From the UHGV virus genome UHGV-0112548: 13,225 bases of DNA; one strand, written 5' to 3'. Under the pieces are notes generated by a model, which was not told the DNA's origin, did no database searches, and saw nothing but the letters and a program-made list of their open reading frames with translations. Position numbers and translations under genes: made by a program. This DNA is from a virus. The stretch's first letter is position 1. Each line of letters begins with the position of its first letter. Positions 3,240 to 12,737 of the stretch are shown here, piece after piece.

Positions 3240-3820
3240 GCGTTAGTTTCTCCACAACCAGAAGCAATCGACGCCACGACGCCCGGAGCTGCACACTCGC
3301 GGGCGTTACTCTTTTCCGGCGCACAAAAAACACGAAATAACAGTGTTAAATGCTCCTGCCACTTCGCCATTACTTGGTAGCTGTTCTCTTCGATTTGCTC
3401 ACGCTCAGCCTGGTCAATAACTCCATCAGCAGTTGCCTTGCGTAAGTACTGGGAATGCTTGCCAATCCATTCTATTGACTCCATCAGCCGCTGATTAATG
3501 TCACCATTGTCAATGTCATCAATGACCACCAGCGGCACAAACACCCCATTACTACGACGGGCTATTGCATCTGTTACATGCCTGGTACCACTGGCATCCT
3601 GTAAAACCATGGCCCACTCAAGTGGAAAAATTTGATCCCCACCGCTACGCAGTCTGTTATGCAATTGATCTTTTGCTGGGGTGATATCATCAGATTTATA
3701 CAAACCAAGAATTTCTGCTGCTTCCTCATAGCCATGAGGTAAATCAGCAATCGTTCTTCGTATTGCTGCCACCAGCCATGCTGGTTGTTTATCAACTTTC
3801 CATTCAGGTTCTTTACCCAC
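3236..3820 (-). CDS. CII-like / YdaT-like early regulatory protein
   Basis: 194-aa ORF with GTG start at 3820 and GAGGAA SD 8 nt upstream; sits directly downstream of the Cro-like gene, where lambdoid phages carry cII. Family assignment is from position and recollection only. Confidence 0.45.
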
Positions 3821-3847
3821 GGTTAATTCCTCATTTCTGTGGTGTTT

Positions 3848-4045
3848 TTATGCCGCAGCACTGTTAGTCTTTTGATATAAAGACACGTCAACTTTCAGTT
3901 TCCCGTTAGTAATTTTTTCTAACTGGTACGCTCGGCCTTCAGGAATAATCTCAGGCCACTCTGAAACAGACGGATGCTTAATACCTAGGGCTTCGGCAGT
4001 TTTACAAACTCCGCCGAAATAATTAATCACGTCGGATTTCCGCAT
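3848..4045 (-). CDS. cro: Cro-like repressor (YdaS-type HTH)
   Basis: 65 aa, divergent from the CI gene; NYFGG..KTAEALGI..SVSEWPE..IP..RAYQLE..T.GKLK matches the small Cro/YdaS-type HTH pattern; GGGAG SD upstream of the ATG at 4045. Confidence 0.7.
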   Translation of the reverse strand: MRKSDVINYFGGVCKTAEALGIKHPSVSEWPEIIPEGRAYQLEKITNGKLKVDVSLYQKTNSAAA

Positions 4046-4140
4046 TTCTGTCTCCCGTTAAATTACGTTAAGCAGAAATGTAGGATATCCAACATACCAA
4101 TGTCAAGAATCCTACATGGGCATGTGGTAGGATTGCCTAC
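4046..4140. promoter_or_regulatory. divergent PR / PRM-like promoter-operator region
   Basis: On the minus strand: TTGACA (plus 4101-4106), 18-bp spacer, TACATT (plus 4077-4082) with the 18-bp operator ATGTAGGATATCCAACAT (4078-4095) over the spacer and -10. A second symmetric element AATCCTAC-N11-GTAGGATT (4108-4134) overlaps a TAGGAT -10-like hexamer 7 nt before the cI ATG, implying a leaderless cI mRNA as at lambda PRM. Confidence 0.55.
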
Positions 4141-4794
4141 ATGATGAACATGAGTGATCGTATTCGCCAAAGGCGAAAAGAACTGAACCTGACACAACAA
4201 GCACTGGCTGATTTGACTGGTGTGAACCGTGTCACGGTTACTGGATGGGAAAAGGACGACTACCAACCAAATGGAGCCAACCTTCAAGCCCTAGCCAACG
4301 CACTTAAATGCGATCCTCTGTGGCTTGTTAGCGGAAAAGGCTCGCCTGAACCAAAGATAAATCTAAAACCTGAAATATTCGCAGTTAAAAAAGTCCCCCT
4401 CATCTCGTGGGTTCAGGCGGGTTCATGGACAATGACGGAGCCTGGTGTCAGGAAAGAAGATGCTGAAGAGTGGGTTTATACTACCGCCCTTGTATCAGAA
4501 ATGGCATTTGCACTACGGGTCCGTGGTGATTCAATGACCAATCCCCTCGGCTCACCATCGATACCAGAAGGTTCTATCGTTATCGTAGAGCCAGATATTA
4601 TTGATACAGAGTGTATTAACGGAAAAATCGTTGTTGCCCATATCAATGGTGGGCAAGAAGCGACACTCAAAAAATTTGTTGAGGACTGGCCGAACAGGTA
4701 TCTCGTCCCACTAAATCCTAACTATAAAACTATTGAATGCGGTGAGAACTGCAGAATAGTTGGTCTTGTCAAACAAGTAATAATGGATTTTTGA
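4141..4794 (+). CDS. cI: CI-type prophage repressor (HTH_XRE N-domain + S24 LexA-like autopeptidase C-domain)
   Basis: 217 aa; N-terminal HTH (LNLTQQALADLTGVNRVTVTGWE), C-terminal serine motif VRGDSM and downstream lysine (ATLKKF); divergent from cro across an operator region; no SD upstream. Confidence 0.85.
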   Translation: MMNMSDRIRQRRKELNLTQQALADLTGVNRVTVTGWEKDDYQPNGANLQALANALKCDPLWLVSGKGSPEPKINLKPEIFAVKKVPLISWVQAGSWTMTEPGVRKEDAEEWVYTTALVSEMAFALRVRGDSMTNPLGSPSIPEGSIVIVEPDIIDTECINGKIVVAHINGGQEATLKKFVEDWPNRYLVPLNPNYKTIECGENCRIVGLVKQVIMDF

Positions 4795-4815
4795 CACATC
4801 TTCCTCACTATCGCA

Positions 4816-4840
4816 AAACCGGGGTATCCCCGGTTTTTTT
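4816..4840 (+). terminator. rho-independent terminator downstream of cI
   Basis: AACCGGGG-TAT-CCCCGG GC-rich hairpin followed by a run of seven T (4834-4840), about 20 nt after the cI stop. Confidence 0.7.
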
Positions 4841-4856
4841 ATGAGCCTATCTTTTT

Positions 4857-4910
4857 ATGTAGGATAACCAACATAAACTCTTGACACTCACATGTTGGAT
4901 ATCCTACATT
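4857..4910 (+). promoter_or_regulatory. PL / OL-like promoter-operator
   Basis: TTGACA at 4881-4886, 18-bp spacer, TACATT at 4905-4910. Operator ATGTTGGATATCCTACAT (4892-4909) is the exact reverse complement of the PR operator at 4078-4095; a second copy ATGTAGGATAACCAACAT lies at 4857-4874. Confidence 0.55.
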
Positions 4911-4992
4911 TGTTTTTAGAGTAGCCGCCGGTGGCATATGAATAACCGGATGATTCGCTGACAGAAAACTTAGGTTGGGGGTAGAGGTTTAC

Positions 4993-7681: not shown

Positions 7682-7995
7682 GCAAATTTACGGCATTACC
7701 AGTAGAACGCGACCAATACGGCTACTGGACTCACCCCGTCTATGAGCAATTTTGCGATGGTCGTGAATTTATCTCACCTGATGAGTTCAACGCCTGGCTG
7801 GATAAAAACGGCCTCGAATGGACGGTAGTTTACCGGGATGAAGAAGACATCGATCCTGAAGTTGATGGTTACGATATTTCAGCCTGGCAGCCAGAATCGC
7901 CAGCCGGTGAAGGTTGGTTTGTCGGTTCAATTCACAACACCGAAGATGGCGCGGTATGCATCTGGTTACGTAACGTTGAAGGCGGTGCAGCATGA
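7678..7995 (+). CDS. hypothetical phage protein
   Basis: 105-aa ORF, coupled to neighbours by ATGA overlaps; acidic, no motif I recognise. Confidence 0.5.
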   Translation: MSKFTALPVERDQYGYWTHPVYEQFCDGREFISPDEFNAWLDKNGLEWTVVYRDEEDIDPEVDGYDISAWQPESPAGEGWFVGSIHNTEDGAVCIWLRNVEGGAA

Positions 7996-8750
7996 CAGTC
8001 CATACACTGAAGCAATGCCGCCCGGACCAAGAAGAAACCGAGTATTTCTGGAAGTTGTTTCATGCGGCACAACGGAATGACGCTCGCTGGCACGGTAGTG
8101 AAATCAGCATTATCGCCGATGAACTATCCCGGACGGATTTAGATCGTAATCAAAAACTGTTTCTTCTCCGTGCCTGGCAAGTGCTGGTAGACGACAAAGG
8201 TGGATTCGGGCGCTTGATGGGTGCCTTTGATACTTACGTCTACAACATGCAGGACCCTGATGATGACTGCGTAGCCTGGAAGCCTGAACTGGCTAAGCTG
8301 CTACAGGATGGCAATCTGTTTGATGTTGTGCTGACGGCATATCAGGAGGCCTGCCATGAGGGGATCGTTAATTGGGAGGCAGCGGTATCTCTTTCTGAGG
8401 AAAACGTAGAACTGAAGCGCAAACTCTACGCAGCAGAGAATCAAATAGCAGAACTGGAGGCGCGGACGTTCAATCCTGCAATTCTAGATGTGATAGCAGA
8501 GCGCCAGCGGCAGAAAGCCGTTGAGGGCTGGACGTCTGAGCATGACGACGCCTATCAAAACAGTGAGCTGGCAGATGCTGCAGCTTGCTATGCGATTAAC
8601 GCACACAATCAAGGCCTCTCAACGCCAGCGCATTGGCCGTGGGCTCCTGATTGGTGGAAGCAATCTGGGCCGCGTCGTGACCTTGTGAAAGCTGGCGCAC
8701 TTATTCTGGCCGAAATTGAACGCATAGACCGCCAGGAGGCCGCCCAATGA
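7992..8750 (+). CDS. hypothetical phage protein with central coiled coil (possibly Ead/Ea22-like)
   Basis: 252 aa; coiled-coil segment NVELKRKLYAAENQIAELEART; C-terminal WTSEHDDAYQNSELADAAACYA. The family label is a recollection only. Confidence 0.5.
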   Translation: MTVHTLKQCRPDQEETEYFWKLFHAAQRNDARWHGSEISIIADELSRTDLDRNQKLFLLRAWQVLVDDKGGFGRLMGAFDTYVYNMQDPDDDCVAWKPELAKLLQDGNLFDVVLTAYQEACHEGIVNWEAAVSLSEENVELKRKLYAAENQIAELEARTFNPAILDVIAERQRQKAVEGWTSEHDDAYQNSELADAAACYAINAHNQGLSTPAHWPWAPDWWKQSGPRRDLVKAGALILAEIERIDRQEAAQ

Positions 8751-9139
8751 GCAACATCAACAAACGCGCAACAGAGATGCTGATTGAAAACGGAGTGCTG
8801 GTTGCCGACACGCTGAGGCGTTTGGCTGATAACGAAATCGACTCCGATTACTTTGCTATTTGCCACACAAACGAAAACGGAACTGAAATTGAATGCGAGC
8901 TGGCAATTACAGATTACGCACGCCAATCTGCTGGAATCGTTGATGATCTGGTAAATGCGCTGGAAGCCGCAGAGAAGCGCATTGCAGAACTGGAAGCGCG
9001 GGAAATATCGCTCCCAGAACTTAGCAGCATGCTTCATCGAACAGATTTTCACGAGGATTACCAAACGGTAATGGCATACAAAGTTTCTGAGGTCATCGCT
9101 GCAATCCGCGCCGCTGGCATTCGCATCAAAGGAGAGTGA
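8747..9139 (+). CDS. hypothetical phage protein with coiled coil
   Basis: 130 aa; AEKRIAELEARE repeats the motif of the upstream gene; ATGA coupling at the start. Confidence 0.5.
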   Translation: MSNINKRATEMLIENGVLVADTLRRLADNEIDSDYFAICHTNENGTEIECELAITDYARQSAGIVDDLVNALEAAEKRIAELEAREISLPELSSMLHRTDFHEDYQTVMAYKVSEVIAAIRAAGIRIKGE

Positions 9140-9140
9140 T

Positions 9141-9575
9141 ATGGCGTTAACACACCGCGAACTCTGTCAGATTGCGTACAAGTTCCTTAAGCGCAACGGG
9201 TTCAAGGTTTGTTTTCATGACCGCTTTATAGCTGTAACCAGTACCGGAGAACAGCCAGATGCTATGGGATTCAGAAATTCAGCATCATGCCTGATAGAGG
9301 CGAAATGTTCTCGTGCTGACTTGTTGGCAGATAGAAAAAAGCGTTTTCGTAAAAATCCGTCTCTTGGAATGGGCGACTGGCGATTCTTTATTAGTGAGCC
9401 GGGAATTATTTCAATTGAGGATTTACCACCTGGCTGGGGATTACTTCACGTTGTTAACGGAAGAGTACGGAAAGTGCATGGGTGCCCAAGGGTAATTGCT
9501 GTTGGGGTAATCCTGACGATAAGCCATTTACTGGAAATAAGCAGGTTGAATGCGATTACATGTTATCTGCATTAA
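9141..9575 (+). CDS. PD-(D/E)xK nuclease-fold protein (VRR-NUC-like); C-terminus possibly frameshifted
   Basis: GEQPDAMGF followed by CLIEAKCS gives a PD...(E)xK arrangement. After about residue 105 the frame looks poor, while another frame (9458..9655) reads protein-like and ends in ATGA overlap with the next gene. Confidence 0.5.
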   Translation: MALTHRELCQIAYKFLKRNGFKVCFHDRFIAVTSTGEQPDAMGFRNSASCLIEAKCSRADLLADRKKRFRKNPSLGMGDWRFFISEPGIISIEDLPPGWGLLHVVNGRVRKVHGCPRVIAVGVILTISHLLEISRLNAITCYLH

Positions 9576-9651
9576 GGCGCATGGAGTTGAGAGGGCACCT
9601 TAATGAAATATATGACGGTGTAATTGTTAATAAGAAAGAAGGAAACGCGGC

Positions 9652-10353
9652 ATGATCACTATTACCAAAGAGCGACTGCTGACAATCAAGCAGTGGCGCG
9701 AAACATACGGACCTGGTAGCAACGTTGTACTGCCAGCAGAAGAAGCGGAAGAACTGGCACGAATTGCTCTGGCATCGCTGGAAGCAGAGCCTATTGGTGA
9801 GGTTTCAGAGAAGCGACTCGGCCTTGTTATGGATGGAACGGTAGACCTTGGCGGGAAATCAACTTATCGCATCATTAAGGGAGAAAAAGCGATGAAGTTG
9901 TTGCCGCTGGGGACGAAGTTTTATGCCGCCCCTCCAGTGCCAGTAGTACCGGAAGAAAAACCAATGCCTAACCCTCTTAAAATGTACGCGGTTGATGCTG
10001 TTGCCGCTATTGCAGAGGTGAGAGGCTGGAACGCCTGTCGTGCCGCTATGCTTCAGGGTAAATCCGAACAACCACAAAACGCACAACAAAATATTCCGGA
10101 AAATATTCACGGTGGCAACTCTCCGGTAACTCCGGATGGTTGGATAAGCTGTAGTGATCGAATGCCGGAAAAGAATCAGAACGTGCTTATTTCAGTGAAT
10201 TTCGATAGCTCTCTGGTTGAACCGCTAATATGCTCCGCACGCTATACCGGAAGCACCTTTCGGCGCGGAGATGCAACGATTAAGCCGGGTAATGGTATTG
10301 AGCAAGCAACTCACTGGATGCCGCTACCGGAACCGCCGCAGGAGGTGAAGTAA
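9652..10353 (+). CDS. DUF551-like phage protein
   Basis: 233 aa; C-terminal DGWISCSDRMPE ... ATHWMPLPEPP resembles the conserved end of DUF551-family phage proteins (from memory). Confidence 0.55.
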   Translation: MITITKERLLTIKQWRETYGPGSNVVLPAEEAEELARIALASLEAEPIGEVSEKRLGLVMDGTVDLGGKSTYRIIKGEKAMKLLPLGTKFYAAPPVPVVPEEKPMPNPLKMYAVDAVAAIAEVRGWNACRAAMLQGKSEQPQNAQQNIPENIHGGNSPVTPDGWISCSDRMPEKNQNVLISVNFDSSLVEPLICSARYTGSTFRRGDATIKPGNGIEQATHWMPLPEPPQEVK

Positions 10354-10925: not shown

Positions 10926-10961
10926 TTTTCCCGGGTGCAGCCGGTTTTGATGGAGAAAATT

Positions 10962-11243
10962 ATGAACACCTTGTTTTTACTGATGGCTGAATTCAATACC
11001 CCTAACATTGAACTCTCAGCAGTTAGCCAGAAGTACTTTGGCATGAGTCCAGCCACGGCAGAAGCAAAAGCAAACGCTTGTAAGTTGCCCGTTCCAACAT
11101 ATCGCATCGGCACATCACAAAAAGCAAAACGTTGCATCAATATTCAGGATCTTGCGGAATACATAGACAAAAGACGAGAAGAAGGACGTATCGAGTGGGA
11201 ACAGGTCAGAACAGGCAAACAGAAGGGCAAAGAACATCACTAA
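10962..11243 (+). CDS. PrtN / excisionase-like small DNA-binding protein
   Basis: Start at the ATG at 10962 with GGAG 6 nt upstream (MNTLFLLMAEF..); resembles PrtN-family proteins as I recall them; last gene of the plus-strand operon. Confidence 0.5.
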   Translation: MNTLFLLMAEFNTPNIELSAVSQKYFGMSPATAEAKANACKLPVPTYRIGTSQKAKRCINIQDLAEYIDKRREEGRIEWEQVRTGKQKGKEHH

Positions 11244-11275
11244 AGAAAAAACCCGCCTGAAGGCGGGTTTTCAAA
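11244..11275. terminator. bidirectional rho-independent terminator
   Basis: A-run (11244-11251), stem ACCCGCC (11251-11257), loop TGAA, stem GGCGGGT (11262-11268), then TTTT. Serves the plus-strand operon and the convergent minus-strand gene. Confidence 0.7.
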
Positions 11276-11290
11276 AAGCACCAGCTATGA

Positions 11291-11464
11291 TCATGCTGCT
11301 TTGCGACGACGAAGCTTACCCTGCTGCTCTTTACCAGAGACAGTAGCGTGAGTGAACGCATTAGGAGCAGCCTTCATCAGAACTTCAACAGCAGCACCCA
11401 TACCTGCGAATGCTTTCATTGTGTCGAACTTAACCTGTGGCTTGGTTGCTTTTTGATCTTTCAT
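11291..11464 (-). CDS. hypothetical small basic protein (57 aa)
   Basis: Not in the ORF track. ATG at 11464 with GGGAG SD 6 nt upstream. My translation: MKDQKATKPQVKFDTMKAFAGMGAAVEVLMKAAPNAFTHATVSGKEQQGKLRRRKAA; stop at 11291-11293. Confidence 0.45.
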   Translation of the reverse strand: MKDQKATKPQVKFDTMKAFAGMGAAVEVLMKAAPNAFTHATVSGKEQQGKLRRRKAA

Positions 11465-11660
11465 AGAAAACTCCCGAGACAGTAAAGGCGTCTCTAACCC
11501 TCTCTTTAAAGCTAGCTTGTTTCGCTAACTTATGCCAATCGATCATGTCGATTGGTGACATCGTTTCTTAGTAGTTTAAGCACAAAACGACTGCCATAGA
11601 TGTACCTTTAAGGTAATCTGGACGGGTATCCTACAATTTGTAGACCCTTCTCGTCTATAC

Positions 11661-12197
11661 CTACTGAGCAAATTTAAGAAAGATATCCTGCAGCTCATCA
11701 ATGACTGCAGACATCACATAACCGCACTGTTCCATGCGGAAACCAAAAGACTCGTAATACTGCACCAGTTCTGGTACTGGCTCTACAATGTGGACAACTT
11801 TACATTCAACAGCTTTACAAAATATAAAAGCACTCATAAGAGTGAGTAAAACCATGCGCCCTTTCAATGGGTGAGATTCATCTTCTCTAGAAAACCTTTC
11901 GATCATATGGATACGAAAGATGTTTTCTTCAACCCCATAAACACAAATTGCTGCTCCTGATGGTATTCCCTGAACCCGACCTTGCTGAACAAGTTTTATG
12001 CAGAACTCATACTTTTCTCTGGAGTTGCCATAGGTGCTTAACGCATAGTCCCATTCAAGCTCACCATAGCCACCACACAGAATCTTGTAATCATCATCAC
12101 TGAGCGGACCAACAGCAAGAGGTAAGCCGACATGATCAATAATCAACTGGATATTGTTACGTACAGATTGACCTATCTCGTCTAGGGTAAGCATCAT
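11661..12197 (-). CDS. hypothetical protein, possibly GNAT-like acyltransferase fold
   Basis: 178-aa ORF in the AT-rich segment; the C-terminal VHIVEPVPELVQYYESFGF resembles the GNAT terminal strand-helix motif, but no clear acetyl-CoA-binding loop. A TATAAT hexamer lies about 30 nt upstream (plus 12228-12233). Confidence 0.45.
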   Translation of the reverse strand: MMLTLDEIGQSVRNNIQLIIDHVGLPLAVGPLSDDDYKILCGGYGELEWDYALSTYGNSREKYEFCIKLVQQGRVQGIPSGAAICVYGVEENIFRIHMIERFSREDESHPLKGRMVLLTLMSAFIFCKAVECKVVHIVEPVPELVQYYESFGFRMEQCGYVMSAVIDELQDIFLKFAQ

Positions 12198-12737
12198 AGA
12201 CTCTCAAGCGGAACACTAAAAATCTCATTATATCTCATTCTGATGCCCGGCATGGATTACACCTTGAAATGAAAACACCGGGTTCCCAATAGGCTCCCAC
12301 AAAGTGTATAACTACTTGTTTTTCAAAAACGGTACATCCTATCGAGCATTGGTGCAACGCTAAACCGACCACTCCAGTGAACGTCAGTTTTTTCAGGCAT
12401 TGCGCTGGTTTGGTTGATTTTTTGCATTTCAGAATTACCGTGCATTTTCAAATGTAGAGATTATTTTATCGATATATCATGGGGTTATGTTATTCAGCAT
12501 CACTATTCAGGAGGCTCAATAGCGGGGTACTATACCATAACAACAGGAAGCGCCTGTCTCATTGCAAAAGAAAATTGAGATCCTCTCAAGGCATGAAGCT
12601 CTCACGAAGTGATGGAAATAATCTTATTAGCCGTTAACTTTGTTAAGGCCAATGATAAACAATCCAGGTTCGACGATAAATAAAAAATCACACATTAAAC
12701 TCTGGTGATATATCTCCCTGCTAATAGCATTGATAGA

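What the first reader, a model, noticed from the sequence alone, without database searches (positions are those of the whole stretch)
9141..9655. PD-(D/E)xK nuclease-like gene with a possibly frameshifted or hidden C-terminus
Seen: the annotated frame carries the nuclease motifs (QPDAMGF, LIEAKCS) but ends at 9575 with an implausible hydrophobic tail and a 76-nt gap, unlike every other junction in this operon. Another frame from 9458 reads ..NPDDKPFTGNKQVECDYMLSALRRMELRGHLNEIYDGVIVNKKEGNAA and stops in an ATGA overlap with the next gene at 9652. This suggests a frameshift near 9457-9490 or a separate coupled mini-gene.
Basis: seen in the sequence. Interest (0 to 1): 0.45.

Follow-up and report, generated by a model that had tools for sequence, protein, structure and literature searches.

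The report
Frameshift-broken phage nuclease-like gene
A prophage gene for a small nuclease-like protein has lost one G, which splits its reading frame in two; the mutation is real and inherited, but it is an ordinary gene-breaking frameshift and not a hidden gene or a recoding signal.

Summary
ORF 9141-9575 (144 aa) carries a D40...E53-x-K55 motif. The -1 frame continues to 9655 and ends in an ATGA overlap with the next gene.

Relatives explain it. In phage P7, POCJ13, JL22 and E. coli AR_0017 the gene is one 516-nt, 171-aa ORF. The window lacks one G of a GG pair (GGGTGGCCC to GGGTGCCC, at G9484). This changes W115 to C and shifts the frame.

The allele is rare: 1 of 663 complete E. coli records, 0 of 122 phage records, 0 of 136 plasmid records. 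It is not an assembly error. The exact 144-aa product is on record on 49 contigs from four sources, and three independent samples carry the identical deletion in slightly diverged copies of the same prophage.

The frameshift removes a conserved loop and two helices, including E137, R146 and R147, so loss of function is likely. There is no slippery site, no stimulatory RNA structure and no convincing ribosome-binding site for a restart. Low interest.

The parts
9141..9655 (+). Whole disrupted gene. It is the homologue of phage P7 upf89.0 and POCJ13 gp75 (516 nt, 171 aa when intact); here it is 515 nt.
   Evidence: Alignment to P7, POCJ13, JL22 and AR_0017 shows a single 1-nt gap and otherwise 97-99.6% identity. 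It matches PHROG 9263 and 631, both of unknown function.
9141..9575 (+). Frame-0 ORF giving the truncated 144-aa product. Residues 1-114 are native; residues 115-144 are an out-of-frame tail.
   Evidence: In the AF2 model of this product the tail (116-144) has pLDDT below 50.
9258..9305 (+). Putative active-site motif P39-D40 ... E53-A54-K55, of the PD-(D/E)xK type.
   Evidence: D40 is invariant, and E37, P39, E53 and K55 are at least 90% conserved, in 46 relatives of 34-55% identity. The motif aligns with D...IECK of SPO1766 (3dnx) and with Hjc.
9483..9485 (+). Frameshift site. Codon TGC replaces TGG (W115) because one G of a GG pair is missing, so G9484 stands where intact copies have GG.
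   Evidence: The same gap is present in three independent samples.
9485..9655 (+). Stranded C-terminal coding segment in the -1 frame. It encodes native residues 116-171 and its stop overlaps the next gene's ATG (ATGA at 9652-9655).
   Evidence: It contains the family-conserved residues W122, K128, P129, F130, N133, K134, Q135, E137, R146, R147, G152 and Y158.
9652..10353 (+). Downstream gene (DUF551 / EaA-like). In intact relatives it overlaps the nuclease-like gene's stop in an ATGA.
   Evidence: Pfam DUF551, E = 3.7e-22. The same ATGA junction is annotated in P7, POCJ13 and JL22.

Best explanation
Shown: region 9141-9655 is one gene of a prophage early operon that has been broken by a genuine, inherited deletion of a single G at G9484. 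Translation from ATG 9141 gives native residues 1-114, which hold the nuclease core and the D40/E53/K55 motif. It then changes W115 to C, adds 29 further out-of-frame residues and stops at 9575. The last 56 native codons are left untranslated in the -1 frame.

Shown for fold, inferred for activity: the intact 171-aa protein has the PD-(D/E)xK nuclease fold and is most closely related to the MmcB-like/DUF1052 family (structure 3dnx). It most likely acts as a Mg2+-dependent DNA endonuclease in phage DNA recombination or repair, alongside the neighbouring RdgC and DEDDh-exonuclease genes.

Inferred: the truncated allele is most likely a loss-of-function pseudogene. It lacks a conserved loop and both C-terminal helices, including the nearly invariant E137, R146 and R147.
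For: 1. The gap is in the window only. Intact copies are 516 nt and 171 aa and end in the ATGA overlap. The closest intact allele, in AR_0017, differs only by this G and one synonymous base.
2. The allele is real. The exact 144-aa product is on 49 contigs from NCBI, JGI, ENA and Logan and is indexed in 75 blocks of the collection. DNA from three independent samples shows the same gap, with flanks differing by 5-23 SNPs and no indels. CP061758 also carries it, in a prophage that is 98-99% identical but has a different immunity region.
3. The allele is rare and derived: 1 of 663 E. coli records, 0 of 122 phage records and 0 of 136 plasmid records.
4. The C-terminus belongs to the domain. Full-length coverage is seen across a family of 3,192 representative clusters, with conserved C-terminal residues. 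Distant homologues are single ORFs of 158-181 aa.
6. MmcB is described as an SOS-induced PD-(D/E)xK endonuclease (PMC9578287), and DUF1052/3dnx is listed in the PD-(D/E)xK superfamily (PMC3424549).
Against: Loss of function is inferred, not shown. The truncated product keeps the minimal core and all three motif residues, and the core is still predicted to fold. No biochemical data exist for any member of this family, so nuclease activity is itself an inference. All deletion-allele copies are nearly identical, so relaxed selection cannot be measured.
Confidence: 0.85

Rival explanations
1. Sequencing or assembly error: the true sequence has GG and the gene is intact.
For: Only 1 of 663 complete E. 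coli records has the allele. Single-base indels are a common assembly error. The one complete genome with it also has a frameshifted dinF.
Against: The identical 144-aa product is on 49 contigs from four independent sources. The identical gap is in the DNA of an ENA metagenome scaffold and two Logan SRA assemblies, whose flanks differ from the window by 5-23 SNPs. The site is a GG dinucleotide and not a long homopolymer.
Confidence: 0.03
2. Programmed -1 ribosomal frameshift: ribosomes slip back one base near 9480-9490 and produce the full-length protein from this allele.
For: The two frames overlap over 9458-9575, so a -1 slip anywhere there would restore the C-terminus. C-CCA-AGG at 9485-9491 is a weak near-slippery sequence (direct reading of the sequence).
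Against: No X-XXY-YYZ heptamer lies in frame in the overlap zone. The downstream RNA folds no better than shuffled sequence, z = -0.02. No matching complete E. coli genome other than CP061758, and no matching phage or plasmid record, carries this deletion, and every relative read in full encodes the protein in one frame. The arrangement is therefore a recent derived state, not a conserved recoding site.
Confidence: 0.02
3. Split gene: the C-terminal 57 codons are translated separately from GTG 9482, and the two pieces assemble into a working enzyme.
For: An in-frame GTG sits exactly at the deletion site (9482). The ORF 9482-9655 is open and keeps the ATGA coupling to the next gene.
Against: The SD:anti-SD pairing upstream of GTG 9482 is -3.5 kcal/mol, against a background of -2.7 +/- 2.5 and -3.9 to -11.6 for the starts used in this operon. 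No homologue examined is organised as two genes. The start lies inside a translated ORF.
Confidence: 0.05
4. The truncated core alone remains active or has an altered role, for example a detoxified or deregulated nuclease kept by selection in this prophage lineage.
For: The alpha-beta-beta-beta-alpha-beta core and D40/E53/K55 are retained and still predicted to fold. The allele persists in several slightly diverged, mosaic prophage copies. Other independent 1-nt deletion alleles of the same gene exist (P0094, P0103).
Confidence: 0.07

Closest known systems
MmcB-like / DUF1052 family (Pfam PF06319; structure 3dnx, SPO1766; Caulobacter MmcB)
   Different: The window protein and its close relatives do not reach Pfam's threshold (no hit; 10 of 46 distant relatives give weak hits at E <= 0.1, the one whose score was listed reaching 16.1 bits against a cutoff of 22). 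This family has its own conserved C-terminal motif (KPF-x-x-NKQ-x-E ... RR). It is carried by temperate phages and prophages of Enterobacterales and other bacteria, whereas DUF1052 is described as mostly alphaproteobacterial (PMC3424549). MmcB's role in crosslink repair has not been shown for this family.
Archaeal Holliday junction resolvase Hjc (PF01870) and related minimal PD-(D/E)xK nucleases (NucS, VRR-NUC)
   Different: The scores are far below those for 3dnx and none reaches the Pfam threshold. The extra beta-hairpin and C-terminal helices differ from Hjc. No evidence of junction resolution exists for this family.
Ordinary frameshift pseudogenes in prophages
   Same: A single-base deletion relative to many intact copies, a premature stop, loss of conserved residues, and a prophage that also carries an Ea22-like gene annotated as partial.
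   Different: Nothing unusual, except that the allele has spread enough to be seen in dozens of independent assemblies.

Membership tests
PD-(D/E)xK nuclease superfamily | alpha-beta-beta-beta-alpha-beta core fold | tested here: met
PD-(D/E)xK nuclease superfamily | Conserved acidic/lysine motif D ... (D/E)-x-K on strands beta2 and beta3 | tested here: met
   D40 is invariant, and E53 and K55 are at least 90% conserved, in 46 relatives of 34-55% identity. They lie at the start of the second strand (E41-45) and the end of the third (E48-54).
PD-(D/E)xK nuclease superfamily | Metal-dependent phosphodiesterase activity | not testable with these tools
   Needs biochemistry.
Pfam PF06319 MmcB-like (DUF1052) | Score at or above Pfam's gathering threshold (22 bits) | tested here: not met
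   No Pfam hit for the window ORF or the joined protein or for P0002. Only weak hits (E <= 0.1) occur in 10 of 46 relatives (best E 2.9e-4); the one whose score was listed, P0273, reached 16.1 bits.
Pfam PF06319 MmcB-like (DUF1052) | Homology to the family's solved structure 3dnx | tested here: met
Pfam PF06319 MmcB-like (DUF1052) | SOS-regulated role in repair of mitomycin C / crosslink damage, as for Caulobacter MmcB | not testable with these tools
   Known only from the literature on MmcB (PMC9578287). Nothing here bears on it.
Programmed -1 ribosomal frameshift site | Slippery heptamer X-XXY-YYZ in the zero frame within the overlap | tested here: not met
   None in 9440-9575.
Programmed -1 ribosomal frameshift site | Stimulatory downstream RNA structure | tested here: not met
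   Region 9486-9580 has MFE -20.1 kcal/mol against a shuffle mean of -20.0; z = -0.02.
Programmed -1 ribosomal frameshift site | Two-frame arrangement conserved among homologues | tested here: not met
   The deletion junction is absent from 662 of 663 E. coli records, 122 of 122 phage records and 136 of 136 plasmid records. Every homologue read in full is a single ORF.
Frameshift pseudogene | Indel relative to intact orthologues that truncates conserved sequence, reproducible in independent sequencing | tested here: met

The most novel reading that the evidence does not exclude
The truncated allele is not dead. Either the 114-residue core, freed of its C-terminal helices, acts as an altered (detoxified, deregulated or dominant-negative) nuclease, or it is complemented by a separately initiated 57-residue C-terminal peptide from GTG 9482. 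In either case the allele would be kept by selection in this dusA-integrated prophage lineage. The existence of at least two other independent 1-nt deletion alleles of the same gene would then reflect recurrent selection against the full-length protein in lysogens.
Probability: 0.05. Interest if true: 0.4.

Novelty: new member of a known kind. Interest (0 to 1): 0.12.

Why it matters
It matters little for biology at large: this is a routine single-base frameshift in an accessory prophage gene. There are two modest practical points.

1. The intact gene belongs to a large family (about 3,200 clusters at 50% identity) that is widespread in phages, has no Pfam or NCBIfam model and has no known function. 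This analysis places it next to the MmcB-like/DUF1052 branch of the PD-(D/E)xK nucleases, which gives a testable activity for a gene common in Stx-converting, P1/P7-like and other enterobacterial phages.

2. RefSeq annotation of this gene is unreliable. Intact copies are labelled as 179-nt "frameshifted" pseudogenes, so annotation alone cannot separate broken copies from intact ones.

Tried and rejected
- **Direct family searches found nothing.** Pfam, NCBIfam and PADLOC scans of the protein gave no hits. A single-sequence search of PDB sequences gave only noise. The link to 3dnx appeared only with a family profile and with the structure.
- **PGAP label dropped as support.** I first took the "frameshifted" label in CP061758 as independent recognition of the deletion. 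I rejected that when the same 179-nt label turned up on the intact AR_0017 copy.
- **Window identity.** I first assumed the window was CP061758 itself. BLAST shows 98-99% identity with a different immunity region, and no complete E. coli genome contains the window exactly.
- **Searches that could not run.** The genome-contig scan with the broad alignment A5 failed for lack of a conserved stretch and was rerun with A4.
- **No estimate of broken-copy frequency.** The IMG/VR scan returned only the 80 best matches, which are all intact, so it cannot give that fraction.
- **Rivals tested and not supported.** These were programmed frameshifting, a restart mini-gene and assembly error.

Full report
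**1. Observation**

The window has an ATG-initiated ORF at 9141-9575 (144 aa). It contains QPDAMGF and LIEAKCS and ends in a hydrophobic tail...HGCPRVIAVGVILTISHLLEISRLNAITCYLH*. The next gene starts at 9652, leaving a 76-nt gap.

The -1 frame is open from 9458. It reads ...PKGNCCWGNPDDKPFTGNKQVECDYMLSALRRMELRGHLNEIYDGVIVNKKEGNAA*, and its TGA overlaps the ATG at 9652.

**2. What it is**

A megablast of 9100-9700 against phage genomes gave 253 matching records. Each listed match spanned exactly one base more than the query.

In phage P7 (upf89.0), Shigella phage POCJ13 (gp75) and phage JL22 (gp104) the gene is a single 516-nt ORF of 171 aa. It ends in the same ATGA overlap with a DUF551/EaA gene. 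Alignment shows one gap: intact copies read CAT GGG TGG CCC AAG (H-G-W-P-K), while the window reads CAT GGG TGC CCA AGG. One G of a GG pair is missing at G9484. W115 becomes C and the frame shifts. The segment after the shift is 100% identical in protein to residues 116-171 of the P7 protein.

The closest intact allele, in E. coli AR_0017, differs from the window only by this G and one synonymous A/G change.

**3. Real mutation or error?**

A 64-nt query across the junction matches 663 complete E. coli records. Only one, CP061758 (O68:H12 strain 97.3), lacks the G. None of 122 phage records or 136 plasmid records lacks it. The allele is therefore rare and derived.

It is nevertheless reproducible:
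- The exact 144-aa product is on record on 49 contigs from NCBI, JGI/IMG, ENA and Logan and is indexed in 75 blocks of the contig collection.
- DNA from an 89.6-kb ENA metagenome scaffold and from two Logan assemblies of separate SRA runs shows the identical gap.
- Their flanks differ from the window by 5-23 substitutions with no indels.
- The window is not CP061758 itself. The two are 98-99% identical with a different immunity region, and no complete E. coli genome contains the window exactly.

The same deletion in several slightly diverged, mosaic copies of one prophage, sequenced independently, rules out a one-off assembly error. The site is not a long homopolymer.

One caution applies. PGAP marks the gene as "frameshifted" in CP061758, but it puts the same odd 179-nt pseudogene on the intact AR_0017 copy. 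That label is an annotation artefact and is not used as evidence here.

**4. Is the lost part important?**

Yes, by three lines of evidence:
- In 34 full-length relatives (58-87% identity), W122, K128, P129, F130, N133, K134, Q135, E137, A144, R146, R147, G152 and Y158 are invariant.
- In 46 more distant relatives (34-55% identity), E137, R146 and R147 remain at least 90% conserved, alongside E37, P39, D40, E53 and K55.
- A profile search of 1.84 billion representative proteins found 3,192 clusters (2,382 at E <= 1e-10), and most matches run to profile position about 145-163 of 166.

Relatives in Shewanella, Alteromonas, Halomonadaceae, an alphaproteobacterium and a Flavobacterium are mostly single ORFs of 158-181 aa.

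**5. What the protein is**

No Pfam, NCBIfam or PADLOC model matches it. PHROGs places it in families 9263 and 631, both of unknown function.

AlphaFold2 with the 34-sequence alignment gives a confident model (pLDDT 84.2, pTM 0.80). It has helix 5-18, strands 22-26, 41-45 and 48-54, helices 58-71, strand 80-85, a hairpin at 99-113, a loop, and helices 135-150 and 154-159. D40 sits at the start of the second strand, and E53 and K55 at the end of the third. This is the classic PD-(D/E)xK arrangement.

Pfam's threshold for PF06319 is not reached by this protein. Only 10 of 46 relatives give weak hits (E <= 0.1), and 19 of 46 give weak Hjc hits. I therefore read it as an unnamed sister family of MmcB-like within the PD-(D/E)xK superfamily, not as a member of PF06319.

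Caulobacter MmcB is described as an SOS-induced endonuclease that protects against mitomycin C (PMC9578287). Whether this phage family does anything similar is unknown.

The gene sits in a prophage early operon with RdgC, an HD-type dNMP phosphatase, Ea22-like genes, DUF551, a DEDDh 3'-5' exonuclease and a PrtN-like excisionase. That setting suggests a role in DNA metabolism.

**6. Consequence of the frameshift**

The 144-aa product keeps the minimal core and the three motif residues. It loses the conserved loop (115-134) and both C-terminal helices, and gains 30 unrelated residues. An AF2 model of it has lower confidence overall (pLDDT 70.4), with the tail below 50. Loss of function is the most likely outcome, but this is an inference.

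**7. Rivals**

- **Programmed -1 frameshifting.** There is no X-XXY-YYZ site in the overlap zone. The downstream RNA is no more structured than shuffles (z = -0.02). No other matching complete-genome, phage or plasmid record carries the deletion, and every relative read in full is a single ORF.
- **Restart mini-gene.** The only suitable in-frame start is GTG 9482. Its SD pairing is -3.5 kcal/mol, against a background of -2.7 +/- 2.5 and -3.9 to -11.6 for the starts used in this operon.
- **Assembly error.** Excluded by the independent assemblies described in section 3.
- **Retained or altered activity of the truncated core.** This cannot be excluded computationally. Other independent 1-nt deletion alleles exist (P0094 and P0103, which shift near the GGGG run and stop at the same codon), but they are rare next to the intact cluster of 1,363 member sequences.

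**8. Verdict**

The feature is an ordinary, real, lineage-specific 1-nt deletion that breaks a phage gene of the MmcB-like branch of the PD-(D/E)xK nucleases. Interest is low. The only mildly useful by-products are the fold-level assignment of a large unnamed phage family and the finding that RefSeq annotation of this gene is systematically unreliable.

Noticed in passing
L119:3501-4016 (E. coli AR_0017, NZ_CP024886.1 1367887-1368402); L004:9501-9679 (CP061758): PGAP annotates only the first 179 nt of this gene as a 'frameshifted' hypothetical pseudogene, even where the 516-nt ORF is intact (AR_0017). Many RefSeq records list no feature over codons ~105-125. This looks like a systematic annotation artefact for this family.
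   Followed up: partly
Proteins P0094 and P0103; equivalent to window ~9436-9445: At least two other independent 1-nt deletion alleles of the same gene exist, one of them in E. coli O104:H4 2009EL-2071. They shift frame near the GGGG run after GW99G and end at the same stop codon, also giving 144-aa products. Other truncated forms are on record too (P0122, 115 aa, on 39 contigs; P0040; P0080). I did not test whether inactivation is recurrent beyond chance.
   Followed up: no
window 7992-8750 and 8747-9139 (+): Two tandem ORFs joined by an ATGA overlap both match the C-terminal parts of Ea22-like PHROG families. PGAP calls the second one 'ead/Ea22-like, partial, missing N-terminus' in CP061758. 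This could be a mosaic junction or a second decayed gene just upstream.
   Followed up: partly
window ~12341-12448 and 10935-12200: The prophage ends next to a 105-nt 5' fragment of dusA (tRNA-dihydrouridine synthase), followed by yjbM and zur. No integrase lies between the PrtN-like excisionase gene and this end. A related phage is present as a separate 43.7-kb record (CP081704) whose match to the window stops at 12448, which marks the attachment site.
   Followed up: partly
window 3843-4920: The immunity region (a LexA/CI-like repressor at 4141-4794 and its surroundings) does not match CP061758, although the flanks are 98-99% identical. This is typical lambdoid mosaicism.
   Followed up: no
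window 9972-10038 (in the DUF551 gene) and 12165-12327: All three independent deletion-allele loci (L005-L007) share the same cluster of 5 substitutions relative to the window at 9972-10038. L005 and L007 share a second cluster at 12165-12327. These look like recombination tracts rather than scattered mutation.
   Followed up: no
L004:15358-16682 (CP061758, outside the window): The core gene dinF is annotated as frameshifted in the one complete genome that carries the deletion allele. I did not check whether this is real or an assembly or annotation issue.
   Followed up: no
L114:2986-3449 (Alteromonas gracilis): The homologous match runs to 3449 but the ORF stops at 3312 (108 aa). This may be another independently broken copy in a distant species.
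   Followed up: no
Family level: The family has 3,192 clusters at 50% identity, is found in Proteobacteria and in at least one Flavobacterium, and has no Pfam or NCBIfam model. Some members are fused to larger proteins (for example P0161, 428 aa, with a TniB/AAA domain N-terminal to the nuclease-like domain).
   Followed up: partly
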